Shown: positions 33,001 to 64,000 of the stretch, piece by piece
Position numbering within the stretch: the stretch's first letter is position 1
How the letters are laid out: every line of letters starts with the position of its first letter
Origin: Haliotis rubra
Lineage: Eukaryota
Assembly (NCBI RefSeq): GCF_003918875.1
Contig: NW_025767046.1
Location: forward strand, 2,232,001-2,296,000
Direction: 5' to 3'
Length of the DNA stretch: 64,000 bases
Program-made: the position numbers

Positions 33001-36000
33001 AACTCCGCCACCAATTACCTGCTGGCAAGATGGCGATCGACATCATTAGTTTTGCTTATGCTGCGACACTTGCTGCTGGTGGAATCTTAGGATATGTTAA
33101 AGCAGGTAAATACTATAGCTTATTTTGCCATATTTGTATAAGGTCACAGACAAGTGAATTTGGTGAACTGACAACATCTGTTCTTGTACAGGCAGGTCAC
33201 AAGTTTCATTCATCAAGTGATGTGGAAGTGTTTACGAGTTCAAAATGTAGAACTTTCAAGAGATGGGGTTTCAGGTGTCGGGTCGTATATTAGGTTGCAT
33301 AGGCATACATAAACGTTCGGATACATTTAATGTGTGCATAAAGAATGAAATATGTGCATTTTAATATCCATCATTAATAAGTACAACCAGAAATTATTGA
33401 GAATTTAAAGATTGTAATTTTTTTATTTTTCACTCATTACTCACGTATTAATGTGAATATTAGCAGAACATAACTCCAGATTCAAAGAAAGGTGAACAGT
33501 TAGTATTTTGTCAAGTCACCATGGGCAGCAATGCAGGCTTCAATGCGGCGGGGCATACTACTGATAAGAGAAGTTAAAAAGTCGTGGTTCATGCTGTCCC
33601 AATATCGGACCACTTCTTCTTTCATTTAAGCAATATTTGTCAGATTTTGCTTGTTGACACTTTCCTTCATAAGTCCCCAAACATTTTCTATTGGATTTAG
33701 GTCAGGGCTATAGCTTGGCCAATCTAATAATGTCAAATTTTGGGTCCGAAACCAGGCCTGTGAATGCTTTGAACGATGTTTTGGGTCGTTGTCCAAACAT
33801 TTCCATAAAACACGTGAGCAGATGGATGTCCCTCGAGAATATCTGTGTACCGCTCACTGTTCATATTCCCTTCAAATACACAGAGGGGCGTTGTCCCTAA
33901 CACAGATATGCCACCCCACATGTTAAATTTCGGACTGTACTTTGGGCGCTGATACAAAGGTTTTTCAGTTTGTTTGGTCCAGAATTTCAGTGTATTAGGA
34001 AACAGGCACACAGAACTTTCATCTCTGAGAAAATCACATTGTCCCAGTTAAAATGTCTATGCTGTAAGCACCAGTTCAACCTTCGCTCCTTTTGTTCAGG
34101 TTTCATGAACGGTGATGGAATTCCTCGACTTTTCTGCCAACCAATTGCATGCAGCTCAGTTCTAATTGTCTCCTTACAGACAGCCACAGTTCCTCTATCA
34201 ATCATATCCAGCCTTAAGTTTTCTAAACTCCTTCATTTGTTTTTAGAAACAAGAATACCAAGCCGCCTCCTATCACCGACAGTCAATTTTCTGGGCCTCC
34301 CTGCGCCTCCCTGGTGCTCAATGCCATATCCATTTGCAATATTTTTCAAAACACGATAAACAGTGGACAAAGGGATGCCTGTTCTACTTGAAATCACTTT
34401 AGCTGATCTGATGCCCTTGTTATAATACTCTAAAATCAACTTCCTCTTCTCTAAATCATCCATACTGAGGATCACTGAAAATGTCGTCTGCTAGCAAGTT
34501 AACAAAGGGGGATAACTCTTCACAAACTAATGAAAAAGGATTAACGGAGTTGTCTCTCTTGAATGAAACCAAGCACTTGATAGCTGGTCAAGGTTGTTTA
34601 TACTAGAAATCCAATTAAACATGTTCCTAAAATTCTCAATAATTTCTGGTCATACTATAATAATAGCCATGTATAACGTTAAAAACTTCCGAGTGCAGTA
34701 TTTGAGTGATCTCACATGCAAACCCACATGGCGCACATACGATGTAGGAGAGAACAATTATTTTGCCAAACGGAATAAAAGAGAAGTGAGGGAGGCAAAT
34801 AATTATCACTGAATGAAGTCTTAAAATATCAGAGCTGGAATTTTGCTGAGTGCAAGTTTAAATAAACTTTAAAAATCAGAGTTGTCCTTTATCAGCGATG
34901 GGTCCTACAAATAAGACATGACGCTAATCCACAGCCGAGGTGTCAGCCAGATTCCGCAAACATCTCAAATTATTGAGTACCAAAACTGCAAAAAAAAGAA
35001 TGGCATAAATTGGGACCGATTGCACGAAACTCTGTAATCAATAAACTATATAGTTATGCAGAGTTAATCCAGACACCAGTTATACTGGACACCTTCAAGC
35101 TGGTGTATGCATCAATCAATAAACTATAAAGTTATGCAGAGTTAATCCAGACACCAGTTATACTGGACAACTTTCAAACTGGTGTATGCACAATACATGC
35201 TGAGCTGCTTAATTAAATAACAATACAGGTTGTGTTTACACTTAACATTTATAATCAAACACTGAATTTGTGTTTTCATTTCAACTGGGTGTAGTGAAAA
35301 ATCCATAATTGCATGTATGAGCTCAGAGTCTGAATAAAGAGGGTCTGTAATTTCTGTCAATAGGAACCAAACTGAAACAGGTCTATGCATTTGAATATTC
35401 AATGCATATGAATTGTTATTACTAAGCTGTCACATGAATTAATGAATATCAACTTTCAAGTCACTTTGACCACCTCTGATTGAAACAGCTGATTTGACAG
35501 CCACAAACACCCACTGTAGCAGCTATTGATAGAAAAGGACTTCCTTCTGAATTGTTATAAGTAGCCATTTTAAAATAAGGATCTATATCTGACAGGGTAA
35601 TCATATTATTTGCATCACAATGAGCAGGGTCTAGAACTAAAGTTTAAATCTGTTAAAGGCATCTTTCTCTTTCTTCAGGTAAATCATTGACTGTTTGCAT
35701 TTATAAGAGTGTGAGTTTAGTTCTACGCAGCTTTTAGCAATATTCTGGCAATATCACAGCGGGGGACACCACAATTGGGGCTCAGACATTGTACCCATGT
35801 GGGGAATCGAACCCGGGTGTTTGGCTTGATGAGCCAATGCTTAACCACCAGGCTACCCCACCGCCCCACATTTACAGGCTGGGGTTAACAATATGGTGAG
35901 GCTGAAATACGATATGTATCCCGATAATATGAGCGCGACACAATCCGTGTCCCAATATACTACTTTAATTTCATAAGTTAATATTGTCTGTCATTTTGTT

Positions 36001-63000: not shown

Positions 63001-64000
63001 TATTATGTTTTATTTAAACATATTTGTAATTTTAAAAAGTAGACATATCCTCAGCATTCATTGTAATGTCAAATGGGCTACAGTGTGAATTCTTTTCTGA
63101 TGTACATGCTTTTTAACTACTGGTCCAAATTCGTATTTTACTTTGGTGGCTCATGCACCATTTTAACAATTTTACATTAAAATATAATATAATATAGTAT
63201 GTCACAACACTGGTATCCATATTGTGATTTGTATTTGGATATATTTGAAGTTGAAGTGTTTGTAAATGACTGACACTGATTGTACAAGCAGATCCCAGTT
63301 TCTATGTACAAAGACTCGTAAAGATCCAGGTTAGAATTGATCTTCAGCAACCCGTGCTTGTCATACGAGGTCACTAACGGGATCGGATGGTCAGGCTCGC
63401 TGACTTGGTTGACACATGTCATCGGTTCCCAATTGCGTAGATCAATGCTTACGCTGATGATCACTGGATTGTCTGGTCCAGACTTGATTATTTACAGACC
63501 GCCACCATATAGCCGTAATATTGCTGAGTGTGGCATTGAACAACAAACCACTCACTTCGACATACAAAGGACCTAAAATATGTAGCCAGTACTTTTCTGA
63601 TAACAGCAATCTCAAATACACTTGGATAATTATGGAATTTTTCTTTTTTATATATTATAAGTTTTAGAGCGTAAAATATGCCATTTTGTCAATTAATCAT
63701 GAAGGGAAGAAACATCTATCTTGAATGAAAGTCTGTGTAGATTAATTTGAACTATAGAGATAATCACAATATTTTACTCAATATACCAGGACTGTAAAAT
63801 AATGTATTGGAGTATGAATTGTTTGAAGTGGGTATTGCCATATACCAGTATACCATACAGACCTGTAAACCTGTACTGACTTTACATTTCAGACCTGAGT
63901 TTTCCTTGTTTGTTGGTGATTTGTCAAGTGATGTTGATGACTATCAGCTGTACAACGCCTTTGCCAGGAGGTACAGATCTGTTAGAGCTGCCAAAGGTAT

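What the first reader, a model, noticed from the sequence alone, without database searches (positions are those of the whole stretch)
33030..63996. Probable ancient microsynteny TRNAU1AP-PAK1IP1-TMEM14C, suggesting human C6orf52 is a relic TRNAU1AP paralog
Seen: TRNAU1AP is head-to-head with PAK1IP1, and TMEM14C is the next gene past the PAK1IP1 3' end. Recalled: human 6p24 has C6orf52 head-to-head with PAK1IP1, followed by TMEM14C/B, and C6orf52 is annotated with a Trnau1ap C-terminal domain, while RRM-containing TRNAU1AP lies on chromosome 1. Inference: the block dates to the bilaterian ancestor and this invertebrate keeps the intact gene at the ancestral position. TMEM14C appears inverted relative to human.
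Basis: partly seen in the sequence, partly recalled or inferred. Interest (0 to 1): 0.68.

Follow-up and report, generated by a model that had tools for sequence, protein, structure and literature searches.

The report
Abalone TMEM14–PAK1IP1–TRNAU1AP gene neighbourhood
In this abalone sequence the genes TRNAU1AP and PAK1IP1 sit head to head with a TMEM14 gene next door, which fits the idea that the mammalian gene C6orf52 is a shortened leftover copy of TRNAU1AP.

Summary
The window is Haliotis-like DNA. PAK1IP1 lies on the minus strand in 9 coding exons (59391 to 44285). TRNAU1AP lies on the plus strand; its first 5 coding exons (59719 to 63996) are then cut by the window end. The two start codons are 327 bp apart, in the most CpG-rich stretch measured (o/e 1.17 against 0.42 window-wide). 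A TMEM14 gene, closer to TMEM14C than to TMEM14A, starts at 33030 on the plus strand and converges on the PAK1IP1 3' end.

The homology claim is supported. The last 63 residues of the H. rufescens TRNAU1AP orthologue find named non-human C6orf52 homologues at E 3e-5 to 3e-4 among 1.84 billion proteins. Nine of 9 such proteins carry Pfam Trnau1ap (104-128 bits, cut-off 27) and no RRM.

Trees place C6orf52 among vertebrate sequences, apart from TRNAU1AP proper, but AU tests reject no alternative. The TMEM14C-PAK1IP1 linkage from sharks to mammals is in print. The human head-to-head orientation is recalled only. No eukaryote genome collection was on hand, so intermediate lineages stayed unchecked.

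Verdict: real and tidy, with a plausible ancient block. The homology is already in databases, so interest is modest. No human sequence was used.

The parts
33030..33105 (+). TMEM14 (TMEM14C-like) coding exon 1, from the ATG
   Evidence: Pfam Tmemb_14 profile 1-27, 20.2 bits, below the cut-off of 24.8. PDB: TMEM14C 2los E 0.0098 against TMEM14A E 0.6. Donor G|GTAAAT.
36656..36757 (+). TMEM14 coding exon 2
   Evidence: Pfam Tmemb_14 32.1 bits, above the cut-off. PDB: TMEM14C E 6.4e-7 against TMEM14A E 1.9e-4. Acceptor cag, donor GTGAGT.
37134..37222 (+). TMEM14 coding exon 3. An in-frame TAG follows at 37223-37225, or the exon splices at AG|GTAGAA. The last exon was not located; one unverified candidate starts at 41878.
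   Evidence: PDB: TMEM14C E 3.4e-6 against TMEM14A E 0.0065. Frames. Candidate scan.
33626..34490 (-). Decayed Tc1/mariner-type transposase in TMEM14 intron 1, split over several frames
   Evidence: Pfam DDE_3 E 2.8e-14, HTH_Tnp_Tc3_2 E 7.1e-9, and HTH_23 below its cut-off.
44285..44668 (-). PAK1IP1 last coding exon (9), acidic and lysine-rich tail, stop at 44285-44287
   Evidence: tblastn with P0003, 67% identity, E 2e-39. ORF.
50055..50163 (-). PAK1IP1 exon 8
   Evidence: tblastn 89% identity. Splice sites.
50820..50917 (-). PAK1IP1 exon 7
   Evidence: tblastn 76% identity. Splice sites.
52981..53043 (-). PAK1IP1 exon 6
   Evidence: tblastn 91% identity. Splice sites.
54831..54913 (-). PAK1IP1 exon 5
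   Evidence: tblastn 78% identity. Donor GTAAGT.
55667..55794 (-). PAK1IP1 exon 4 (WD40 repeat)
   Evidence: 16 hits, of which 14 are named PAK1IP1(-like) and the best are 91-95% identical Haliotis proteins. Pfam WD40 20.7 bits, below its cut-off of 27.
57609..57729 (-). PAK1IP1 exon 3 (WD40 repeat)
   Evidence: Pfam WD40 27.3 bits. tblastn 78% identity.
58611..58776 (-). PAK1IP1 exon 2 (WD40 repeat)
   Evidence: tblastn 84% identity. Beta-propeller Pfam matches, all below their cut-offs.
59302..59391 (-). PAK1IP1 exon 1, from the first in-frame ATG at 59391
   Evidence: tblastn 84% identity. Sequence read. Donor GTATGC.
59392..59718 (.). 327-bp spacer between the two start codons; inferred shared bidirectional promoter region
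   Evidence: CpG o/e 1.17 and GC 0.398, against CpG o/e 0.42 for the whole window. Promoter activity itself was not tested.
59719..59751 (+). TRNAU1AP exon 1 (MALSSSLWMGD, then GTGTGT)
   Evidence: tblastn with P0017. Sequence read.
60945..61042 (+). TRNAU1AP exon 2 (start of RRM1)
   Evidence: tblastn 100% identity over 32 residues. Splice sites.
61483..61582 (+). TRNAU1AP exon 3 (rest of RRM1)
   Evidence: Pfam RRM_1 26.3 bits, cut-off 20.7. PDB best hit 2div, tRNA selenocysteine associated protein, E 5.3e-7. P0017 97% identity.
62577..62629 (+). TRNAU1AP exon 4 (linker)
   Evidence: tblastn 100% identity. Donor GTGAGT.
63893..63996 (+). TRNAU1AP exon 5 (start of RRM2). A GT donor follows at 63997, and the rest of the gene lies beyond the window.
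   Evidence: PDB best hit 2dhg SECP43, E 4.3e-6, with the next hit at 0.016. tblastn 100% identity.

Best explanation
The window carries three ordinary housekeeping genes of an abalone in the order TMEM14 (plus strand), PAK1IP1 (minus strand), TRNAU1AP (plus strand).

Shown:
- The gene identities, at the level of exon-wise homology.
- The 327-bp head-to-head spacing of PAK1IP1 and TRNAU1AP, with a local CpG peak.
- The convergent TMEM14-PAK1IP1 arrangement.
- Mammalian C6orf52 homologues consist of the Trnau1ap C-terminal domain alone.

Inferred:
- The spacer is a shared bidirectional promoter.
- The three-gene block already existed in the last common ancestor of molluscs and vertebrates.
- An early vertebrate duplication, most simply the whole-genome duplications, produced two copies of the block.
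- The copy now at 1p35.3 kept a full TRNAU1AP.
- The copy next to PAK1IP1 and TMEM14C lost its RRMs in the line to mammals and survives as C6orf52.
- An inversion of TMEM14 happened in one of the two lineages.
For: Gene identities:
- PAK1IP1.
- TRNAU1AP.
- TMEM14C-like.

Head-to-head geometry and CpG peak.

Second Haliotis species: in H. rufescens both orthologues are reported on a contig of the same length, 79,745,701 bp.

C6orf52 homology:
- The 63-residue C-terminus of P0017 gave 41 hits at E <= 1e-3.
- Of these, 30 were looked up for names.
- Named C6orf52 homologues among them: Ursus 2.9e-5, Capra 4.0e-5, Hippopotamus 5.1e-5, Vulpes lagopus 1.2e-4, Nycticebus 2.3e-4, Vulpes vulpes 2.8e-4.
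- Nine of 9 C6orf52-cluster proteins score 104.7-128 bits on PF17654 (cut-off 27) and have no RRM_1 at E <= 0.01.
- BLASTP of abalone TRNAU1AP against a hippopotamus C6orf52 homologue gives E 1e-13; Mustela TRNAU1AP against the same gives E 2e-23.

Trees:
- Invertebrates split from vertebrates at 97/96 and 97/97.
- The C6orf52 clade has 98/97 and 100/100 support.
- TRNAU1AP proper forms its own clade at 85/86 and 94/92.

Other vertebrate 'TRNAU1AP-like' proteins:
- RRM-less forms exist in Latimeria, Polypterus and Erpetoichthys.
- Divergent RRM-bearing forms exist in Sphenodon and Hypanus.

Papers, passages read:
- tmem14c-pak1ip1 linkage from sharks to mammals: PMC11350804.
- Mouse gene order: PMC3723895.
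- SECP43 at 1p35.3: PMC1884150.
- C6ORF52 co-altered with TFAP2A, GCNT2, PAK1IP1 and TMEM14C: PMC10866441.

Recalled, not tested: 6p24 and 1p34-35 share other duplicate pairs (TFAP2A/TFAP2E, EDN1/EDN2, HIVEP1/HIVEP3).
Against: - The timing of the duplication is not resolved. AU tests do not reject C6orf52 grouped with all 'like' sequences (p 0.295 and 0.226), with TRNAU1AP proper (p 0.105 and 0.109), or on the invertebrate side (p 0.244 and 0.367).
- The sister position of the Latimeria sequence (82/83) vanished in the second tree.
- Only 71 and 109 alignment columns were available.
- The genomic position of the vertebrate 'TRNAU1AP-like' genes, and the human C6orf52-PAK1IP1 orientation, were not seen in any tool output.
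- No lineage between molluscs and vertebrates was inspected.
- The PAK1IP1 name rests on database names. Four PDB searches gave no PAK1IP1 chain: only generic WD40 chains among the 60 shown, and one weak chance-level match each.
- The assignment to TMEM14C rather than TMEM14A rests on two PDB chains, not on a tree.
- TMEM14 has a different relative orientation from the recalled human one, so the block is not strictly collinear.
Confidence: 0.6

Rival explanations
1. The block is ancestral, but C6orf52 is not a whole-genome-duplication twin. Either the original TRNAU1AP stayed beside PAK1IP1 and decayed after a small-scale copy moved to the 1p35-type locus, or a local tandem copy was truncated.
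For: The trees leave the order of events open. RRM-less forms in bichirs and coelacanth sit alongside RRM-bearing divergent forms in tuatara and stingray, which shows a complicated history of loss.
Against: The recalled paralogy of 6p24 with 1p34-35 favours a large-scale duplication, but this was not tested here. No tool result tells the two scenarios apart.
Confidence: 0.2
2. Coincidence. C6orf52 arose by a late partial duplication or retro-copy of the 3' part of TRNAU1AP that happened to land beside PAK1IP1, and the abalone adjacency was assembled independently.
For: Only one invertebrate lineage was seen. AU tests do not exclude C6orf52 grouping with TRNAU1AP proper (p 0.105 and 0.109).
Against: - Two of two flanking gene families match between abalone and the vertebrate locus. 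Among some 20,000 genes this is very unlikely by chance (an inference, not computed).
- C6orf52 forms its own long-stemmed clade outside the clade of mammal, bird and frog TRNAU1AP.
- Trnau1ap-only genes exist in coelacanth and bichirs, so the RRM-less form is not confined to mammals.
Confidence: 0.12
3. One of the gene names is wrong. The WD40 gene might not be the PAK1IP1 orthologue, or the TMEM14 gene might be a pro-orthologue of all vertebrate TMEM14 genes. The synteny claim would then be looser than stated.
For: - There is no Pfam family specific to PAK1IP1.
- None of the four PDB searches returned a PAK1IP1 chain.
- No TMEM14 tree was made.
Against: - Fourteen of 16 hits of a single exon carry the PAK1IP1 name in NCBI or UniRef, and none carries another name.
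- All nine exons align with the H. rufescens PAK1IP1-like protein.
- Three of 3 TMEM14 exons score better against TMEM14C than against TMEM14A.
Confidence: 0.05

Closest known systems
Vertebrate 6p24-type cluster elovl2-gcm2-mak-tmem14c-pak1ip1(-tfap2a) (PMC11350804, passages read; mouse order in PMC3723895, figure legend read)
   Same: PAK1IP1 and a TMEM14C-type gene are immediate neighbours.
   Different: In abalone the two genes converge, whereas the recalled human arrangement is tandem. The other side of PAK1IP1 holds a TRNAU1AP with RRMs, not C6orf52. No Pfam match to the other cluster genes was found among the 15 open frames of 1-33000 that were scanned; short exons could have been missed.
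TRNAU1AP / SECp43 (two RRMs plus a Tyr-rich C-terminal domain; PMC4456167 and PMC12936836, passages read)
   Same: The window encodes RRM1 and the start of RRM2, and their best solved-structure matches are SECp43 chains. The H. rufescens orthologue has 2 RRM_1 stretches plus PF17654.
   Different: The window copy is cut off before the C-terminal domain. The function is uncertain even in mouse: conditional knock-outs kept selenoprotein expression.
C6orf52 homologues of mammals (named references from Ursus, Capra/Ovis, Budorcas, Hippopotamus, Vulpes, Nycticebus)
   Same: They share the Trnau1ap C-terminal domain, including the block ..LEDP..L.I...N.EFM..SE..Y..L....W.PLD.V.S.IP.
   Different: They are 130-219 aa long, have no RRM, and sit on a fast-evolving stem (branch length 0.88 and 1.09). 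The human protein itself was not examined.
Conserved head-to-head (bidirectional promoter) gene pairs and ancient metazoan microsynteny (general knowledge; the published block lists are recalled and were not read)
   Same: Start codons are 327 bp apart with a CpG-preserved spacer, and the same neighbours are seen in a distant phylum.
   Different: Conservation is documented here for two lineages only, and co-regulation was not tested.

Membership tests
TRNAU1AP / SECp43 | Two N-terminal RRM domains | tested here: met
   RRM_1 scores 26.3 bits on exon 3. SECp43 RRM1 (2div) and RRM2 (2dhg) are the best PDB hits of exons 3 and 5. RRM2 is only partly inside the window.
TRNAU1AP / SECp43 | C-terminal Trnau1ap domain (PF17654) | not testable with these tools
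   The domain lies beyond the window end. It is present in the 97-100% identical H. rufescens orthologue P0017 (70.5 bits).
TRNAU1AP / SECp43 | Association with tRNA[Ser]Sec | not testable with these tools
   This is a biochemical property, reported for the mammalian protein (PMC4456167, passage read).
PAK1IP1 / Mak11 | WD40 beta-propeller | tested here: met
   WD40 or beta-propeller Pfam matches on 4 of 8 exon frames. One reaches its cut-off (WD40, 27.3 bits, exon 3); the rest are below cut-off, as expected for single exons.
PAK1IP1 / Mak11 | Orthology to PAK1IP1 rather than to another WD40 protein | tested here: inconclusive
   Fourteen of 16 hits are named PAK1IP1(-like), 2 are unnamed, and none has another name. 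All 9 exons align with P0003. No PAK1IP1 chain surfaced in 4 PDB searches, and no tree was made.
TMEM14 (PF03647) | Tmemb_14 domain | tested here: met
   Exon 2 scores 32.1 bits, above the cut-off of 24.8. Exon 1 scores 20.2 bits, below it.
TMEM14C subgroup | Closer to TMEM14C than to TMEM14A | tested here: met
   Three of 3 exons: E 0.0098 against 0.6; 6.4e-7 against 1.9e-4; 3.4e-6 against 0.0065. This compares two PDB chains only, is not a phylogeny, and TMEM14B was not compared.
Trnau1ap-domain family, for C6orf52 | Significant match to PF17654 and to TRNAU1AP C-termini | tested here: met
   Nine of 9 non-human C6orf52-cluster proteins score 104.7-128 bits. They were found from the abalone-type C-terminus at E 2.9e-5 to 2.8e-4. 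Human C6orf52 was not examined.
Ancient conserved microsynteny block | Same neighbours in several distant lineages, including intermediates | not testable with these tools
   Seen in the window. H. rufescens has both genes on a contig of the same length only. The vertebrate tmem14c-pak1ip1 linkage comes from papers. No eukaryote genome collection was available.
Bidirectional promoter pair | Divergent transcription from a short shared spacer | tested here: inconclusive
   The ATG-to-ATG gap is 327 bp and CpG o/e is 1.17 against 0.42 window-wide. Transcription start sites are unknown.

The most novel reading that the evidence does not exclude
TRNAU1AP and PAK1IP1 form a co-regulated head-to-head unit that has been kept since before the split of protostomes and deuterostomes. 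It would couple a tRNA(Sec)-associated factor to a 60S ribosome biogenesis factor. After the vertebrate duplications, the copy beside PAK1IP1 could not be deleted, because its promoter and first exon are entangled with PAK1IP1's. It was instead whittled down to the conserved C-terminal domain, giving C6orf52 and the fish and coelacanth 'TRNAU1AP-like' genes. That domain would still act on its own, for example by competing for the partners of TRNAU1AP.
Probability: 0.15. Interest if true: 0.55.

Novelty: new member of a known kind. Interest (0 to 1): 0.35.

Why it matters
It gives an evolutionary origin to C6orf52. One paper (PMC10775140, passages read) still treats the human gene as a 'missing protein' with oocyte expression. 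It also extends the vertebrate pak1ip1-tmem14c cluster, documented from sharks to mammals, to a mollusc.

If the head-to-head pair proves to be conserved across phyla, it is a clean case for studying why bidirectional pairs persist. It would also suggest that the Trnau1ap C-terminal domain, whose function is unknown, works independently of the RRMs.

The homology itself is already recorded: UniRef names bear and fox C6orf52 homologues 'tRNA selenocysteine 1-associated protein 1 C-terminal domain-containing protein'. The new part is therefore only the positional argument.

Tried and rejected
- Solved structures for PAK1IP1. Two searches returned only generic WD40 chains among the 60 rows shown; the other two returned one weak chance-level match each (E 0.39 and 0.093). 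They do not discriminate.
- Word-index search with the C-terminal region of P0017. It found only the query itself, so it gave no route to C6orf52.
- ESM Atlas. The search by features gave no usable hit. The search by structure gave TM scores of 0.33-0.41, and only one row was a TRNAU1AP cluster. Not informative.
- Rfam over the whole window: 0 matches.
- AU tests: none of three alternative placements of C6orf52 was rejected, so the trees cannot date the duplication.
- Last TMEM14 exon. A motif-free scan gave two candidates, starting at 38272 and 41878. Neither could be verified.
- Literature searches:
  - 'C6orf52': 35 papers, 30 listed; none of the listed titles concerns its evolution.
  - TRNAU1AP + PAK1IP1: 0 papers.
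  - PAK1IP1 + microsynten*: 0 papers.
  - TRNAU1AP + synten*: 0 papers.
  - 'trnau1apl' occurs as a gene symbol in one loach paper, which makes no evolutionary claim.
- Supplementary tables are closed. Published microsynteny lists (recalled, not read) may already contain this pair.
- Not done:
  - The N run at 4871-4999 was left as it is.
  - Hits without an organism name were not used. Two of them, P0044 and P0051, have match statistics like the mammalian C6orf52 homologues and may be human.
  - Eleven of the 41 hits were never looked up.
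Full report
What the window is. It holds 64 kb at 38% G+C, with one N run at 4871-4999 that was left untouched. A PAK1IP1 exon searched alone is 91-95% identical to proteins of three Haliotis species. TRNAU1AP exons 2-5 are 97-100% identical to the H. rufescens protein. The window is therefore abalone or a very close relative, and nothing in it looks human.

How the genes were handled. Each gene model was examined exon by exon.

PAK1IP1.
- tblastn with the H. rufescens PAK1IP1-like protein P0003 finds nine collinear pieces on the minus strand at 67-91% identity.
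- Inspection of the flanks gives canonical GT/AG sites and consistent phases.
- The exons are 59391-59302, 58776-58611, 57729-57609, 55794-55667, 54913-54831, 53043-52981, 50917-50820, 50163-50055 and 44668-44285.
- Pfam sees WD40 or beta-propeller matches in 4 of the 8 exon frames scanned, and nothing specific.
- The exon-4 frame gave 16 hits among 281 candidates. Fourteen carry a PAK1IP1 name in NCBI or UniRef, all from molluscs, and 2 are unnamed.
- Against this, four searches of solved structures never returned a PAK1IP1 chain. Searches gave only generic WD40 proteins among the 60 rows shown, and searches gave one weak chance-level match each.
- The orthology is therefore name-based and was not tested by a tree.

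TRNAU1AP.
- tblastn with P0017 (H. rufescens 'tRNA selenocysteine 1-associated protein 1-like', 288 aa) gives five plus-strand pieces.
- After splice-site inspection the exons are 59719-59751, 60945-61042, 61483-61582, 62577-62629 and 63893-63996. A GT follows at 63997, and the window ends at 64000.
- The exon-3 frame matches Pfam RRM_1 at 26.3 bits, above the cut-off of 20.7.
- Among PDB chains, the best hit of exon 3 is the RRM1 of the tRNA selenocysteine associated protein (2div, E 5.3e-7; next is hnRNP Q at 4.6e-5; 7 matches in all).
- The best hit of exon 5 is SECP43 RRM2 (2dhg, E 4.3e-6; next at 0.016; 4 matches in all).
- The C-terminal Trnau1ap domain is not in the window. P0017 has it at residues 186-286 (PF17654, 70.5 bits).

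TMEM14.
- The plus-strand exons are 33030-33105, 36656-36757 and 37134-37222.
- Pfam Tmemb_14 scores 32.1 bits on exon 2 (cut-off 24.8) and 20.2 bits on exon 1, below the cut-off. The third frame I first sent was the wrong one and gave nothing.
- All three exons score better against the TMEM14C chain 2los than against the TMEM14A chain 2loo: 0.0098 against 0.6, 6.4e-7 against 1.9e-4, and 3.4e-6 against 0.0065.
- Exon 3 is followed at once by an in-frame TAG, which is also a possible donor (AG|GTAGAA).
- The PDB alignment stops about 18 residues before the end of the TMEM14C chain, so a further short exon is likely. A scan gave two unverified candidates.

Geometry.
- The first in-frame ATG of PAK1IP1 (59391, minus strand) and the ATG of TRNAU1AP (59719, plus strand) are separated by 327 bp.
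- That spacer has CpG o/e 1.17, against 0.42 for the whole window, and the 500-bp windows around it are the only ones above 1.0 between 57 and 62 kb.
- This is what an unmethylated shared promoter would look like, but transcription starts are unknown.
- TMEM14 and PAK1IP1 converge.
- The at most about 7.06 kb between them (37225 to 44285) holds dispersed repeat copies and a 358-bp inverted repeat. The four open frames of 112-136 aa scanned there have no Pfam match.

Is C6orf52 related to TRNAU1AP?
- The domain in question lies outside the window, so I used the last 63 residues of the stored H. rufescens orthologue.
- A full HMMER scan of 1.84 billion representative proteins gave 41 hits at E <= 1e-3.
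- I looked up names for 30 of the 41.
- Named 'putative uncharacterized protein C6orf52 homolog' records are among them: Ursus maritimus (2.9e-5), the Capra/Ovis/Budorcas cluster (4.0e-5), Hippopotamus (5.1e-5), Vulpes lagopus (1.2e-4), Nycticebus (2.3e-4) and Vulpes vulpes (2.8e-4).
- UniRef already calls the bear and fox proteins 'tRNA selenocysteine 1-associated protein 1 C-terminal domain-containing protein'.
- Nine of 9 C6orf52-cluster proteins scanned match PF17654 at 104.7-128 bits (cut-off 27), with no RRM_1 at E <= 0.01.
- Pairwise BLASTP of abalone TRNAU1AP against the hippopotamus C6orf52 homologue gives E 1e-13. Mustela TRNAU1AP against the same gives E 2e-23, with 42% identity over 118 residues.
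- Human C6orf52 itself was not examined, and hits without an organism name were not used. Two of those, P0044 and P0051, may be human.

When did the copies split?
- The hits also include short RRM-less 'TRNAU1AP-like' proteins of Latimeria (153 aa), Polypterus (130 aa) and Erpetoichthys (131 aa).
- They include divergent proteins that still carry an RRM in Sphenodon (302 aa) and Hypanus (310 aa, isoform X3 with a garbled N-terminal half).
- They include TRNAU1AP proper of Mustela, two birds and Bombina, and invertebrate proteins of Patella, Candidula, Pecten and Saccoglossus.
- One primate record (P0032) turned out in the alignment to be a truncated TRNAU1AP proper, and I dropped it.
- First tree: 22 rows, 71 columns. 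Second tree: 20 rows, 109 columns, without the two longest invertebrate rows.
- Both trees split invertebrates from vertebrates (97/96 and 97/97).
- Both recover a long-stemmed C6orf52 clade (98/97 and 100/100).
- Both recover a separate clade of TRNAU1AP proper (85/86 and 94/92).
- The 'like' sequences are unresolved. Latimeria is sister to C6orf52 in the first tree (82/83) but not in the second.
- AU tests reject nothing. C6orf52 with all 'like' rows gives p 0.295 and 0.226. With TRNAU1AP proper it gives p 0.105 and 0.109. With the invertebrate side it gives p 0.244 and 0.367.
- The best trees therefore fit a duplication within vertebrates followed by loss of the RRMs, but the data do not prove the timing.
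- One shared residue pattern, LMNCHW in C6orf52 and all 'like' rows against LMDCHW or LIDCHW in TRNAU1AP proper, points the same way. It is a single site.

The vertebrate side of the synteny. No tool here holds animal genomes, so I used papers, reading passages only.
- PMC11350804 reports the cluster elovl2-gcm2-mak-tmem14c-pak1ip1, with tfap2a in several groups, from sharks and skates to mammals.
- A figure legend in PMC3723895 gives the mouse order Gcnt2, A730081D07Rik, Pak1ip1, Tmem14c, Mak, Gcm2, and its title puts human PAK1IP1 at 6p24.
- PMC10866441 lists GCNT2, PAK1IP1, TMEM14C and C6ORF52 as co-altered with TFAP2A, as neighbours would be.
- PMC1884150 anchors SECP43 to HSA1p35.3.
No call shows it.
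- The paralogy of 6p24 with 1p34-35 (TFAP2A/E, EDN1/2, HIVEP1/3), which would make C6orf52 and TRNAU1AP duplication twins, is likewise recalled.

Is it more than chance? The finding region holds three genes, and they belong to the same three families as the three neighbours at the vertebrate locus. With some 20,000 genes, a matching family on both sides of PAK1IP1 by accident is very unlikely. This is an inference and was not computed. The only second species touched is H. rufescens, where both orthologues sit on a contig of the same length, 79,745,701 bp. That is consistent with the block but far from proof of adjacency.

Is it in print?
- 'C6orf52': 35 papers, 30 listed; none of the listed titles concerns its origin.
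- TRNAU1AP with PAK1IP1: 0 papers.
- PAK1IP1 with microsynten*: 0 papers.
- TRNAU1AP with synten*: 0 papers.
- PMC10775140 treats C6orf52 as a 'missing protein' expressed in oocytes.
- PMC12936836 and PMC4456167 describe SECp43 as having two RRMs plus a Tyr-rich C-terminal domain of unknown function, with an unclear role in selenoprotein synthesis.

Verdict. The ancient-block reading is the most economical explanation, with confidence about 0.6. It still lacks the intermediate lineages and a resolved tree. This is a neat annotation insight, not a surprise.

Noticed in passing
window 33626-34490 (-): A decayed Tc1/mariner-type transposase lies inside TMEM14 intron 1. Its DDE_3 and HTH_Tnp_Tc3_2 pieces are split over different frames.
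   Followed up: partly
window 57068-57584, and 14 further places between 3122 and 56661: A repeat of about 128 bp stands as four tandem copies (90% matches by TRF; later copies 91-93% identical to the first by blastn) in PAK1IP1 intron 3. It recurs dispersed on both strands at 77-89% identity: 18 blastn pieces in all. Rfam found no tRNA or other family in it.
   Followed up: partly
window 40050-40399 and 42734-43090: An inverted repeat of 358 bp at 92% identity, with arms about 2.3 kb apart, lies between TMEM14 and PAK1IP1. It may be a foldback-type element.
   Followed up: no
window 17196-18582 and 1-899: Two long minisatellite arrays: a 57-bp unit (171-bp higher order, about 24 copies in all) and a 58-bp unit (16 copies) that runs into the window start.
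   Followed up: no
window 14351-14806 (-) and 20298-20843 (-): A reverse-transcriptase fragment (RVT_1, E 2.6e-13) and a second long frame without a Pfam match that reads like the C-terminal part of a retroelement ORF. No Pfam match to a host gene family was found among the 15 open frames of 1-33000 that were scanned (only RVT_1); short exons could be missed.
   Followed up: partly
P0050 (Sphenodon) and P0054 (Hypanus): Two vertebrate 'TRNAU1AP(-like)' proteins keep an RRM but have the C6orf52-type LMNCHW C-terminus. The tuatara protein has a long D/Y/R-rich repeat in place of the usual Tyr/Gln-rich stretch. They may be full-length survivors of the paralogue that became C6orf52.
   Followed up: partly
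window 61040-61483: At the TRNAU1AP exon 2/3 junction, canonical splice sites would encode Gly where the H. rufescens protein has Ser. This is either a real difference or a slightly different splice choice.
   Followed up: no
window 4871-4999: A run of 129 N, either an assembly gap or masked. It was left as it is.
   Followed up: no
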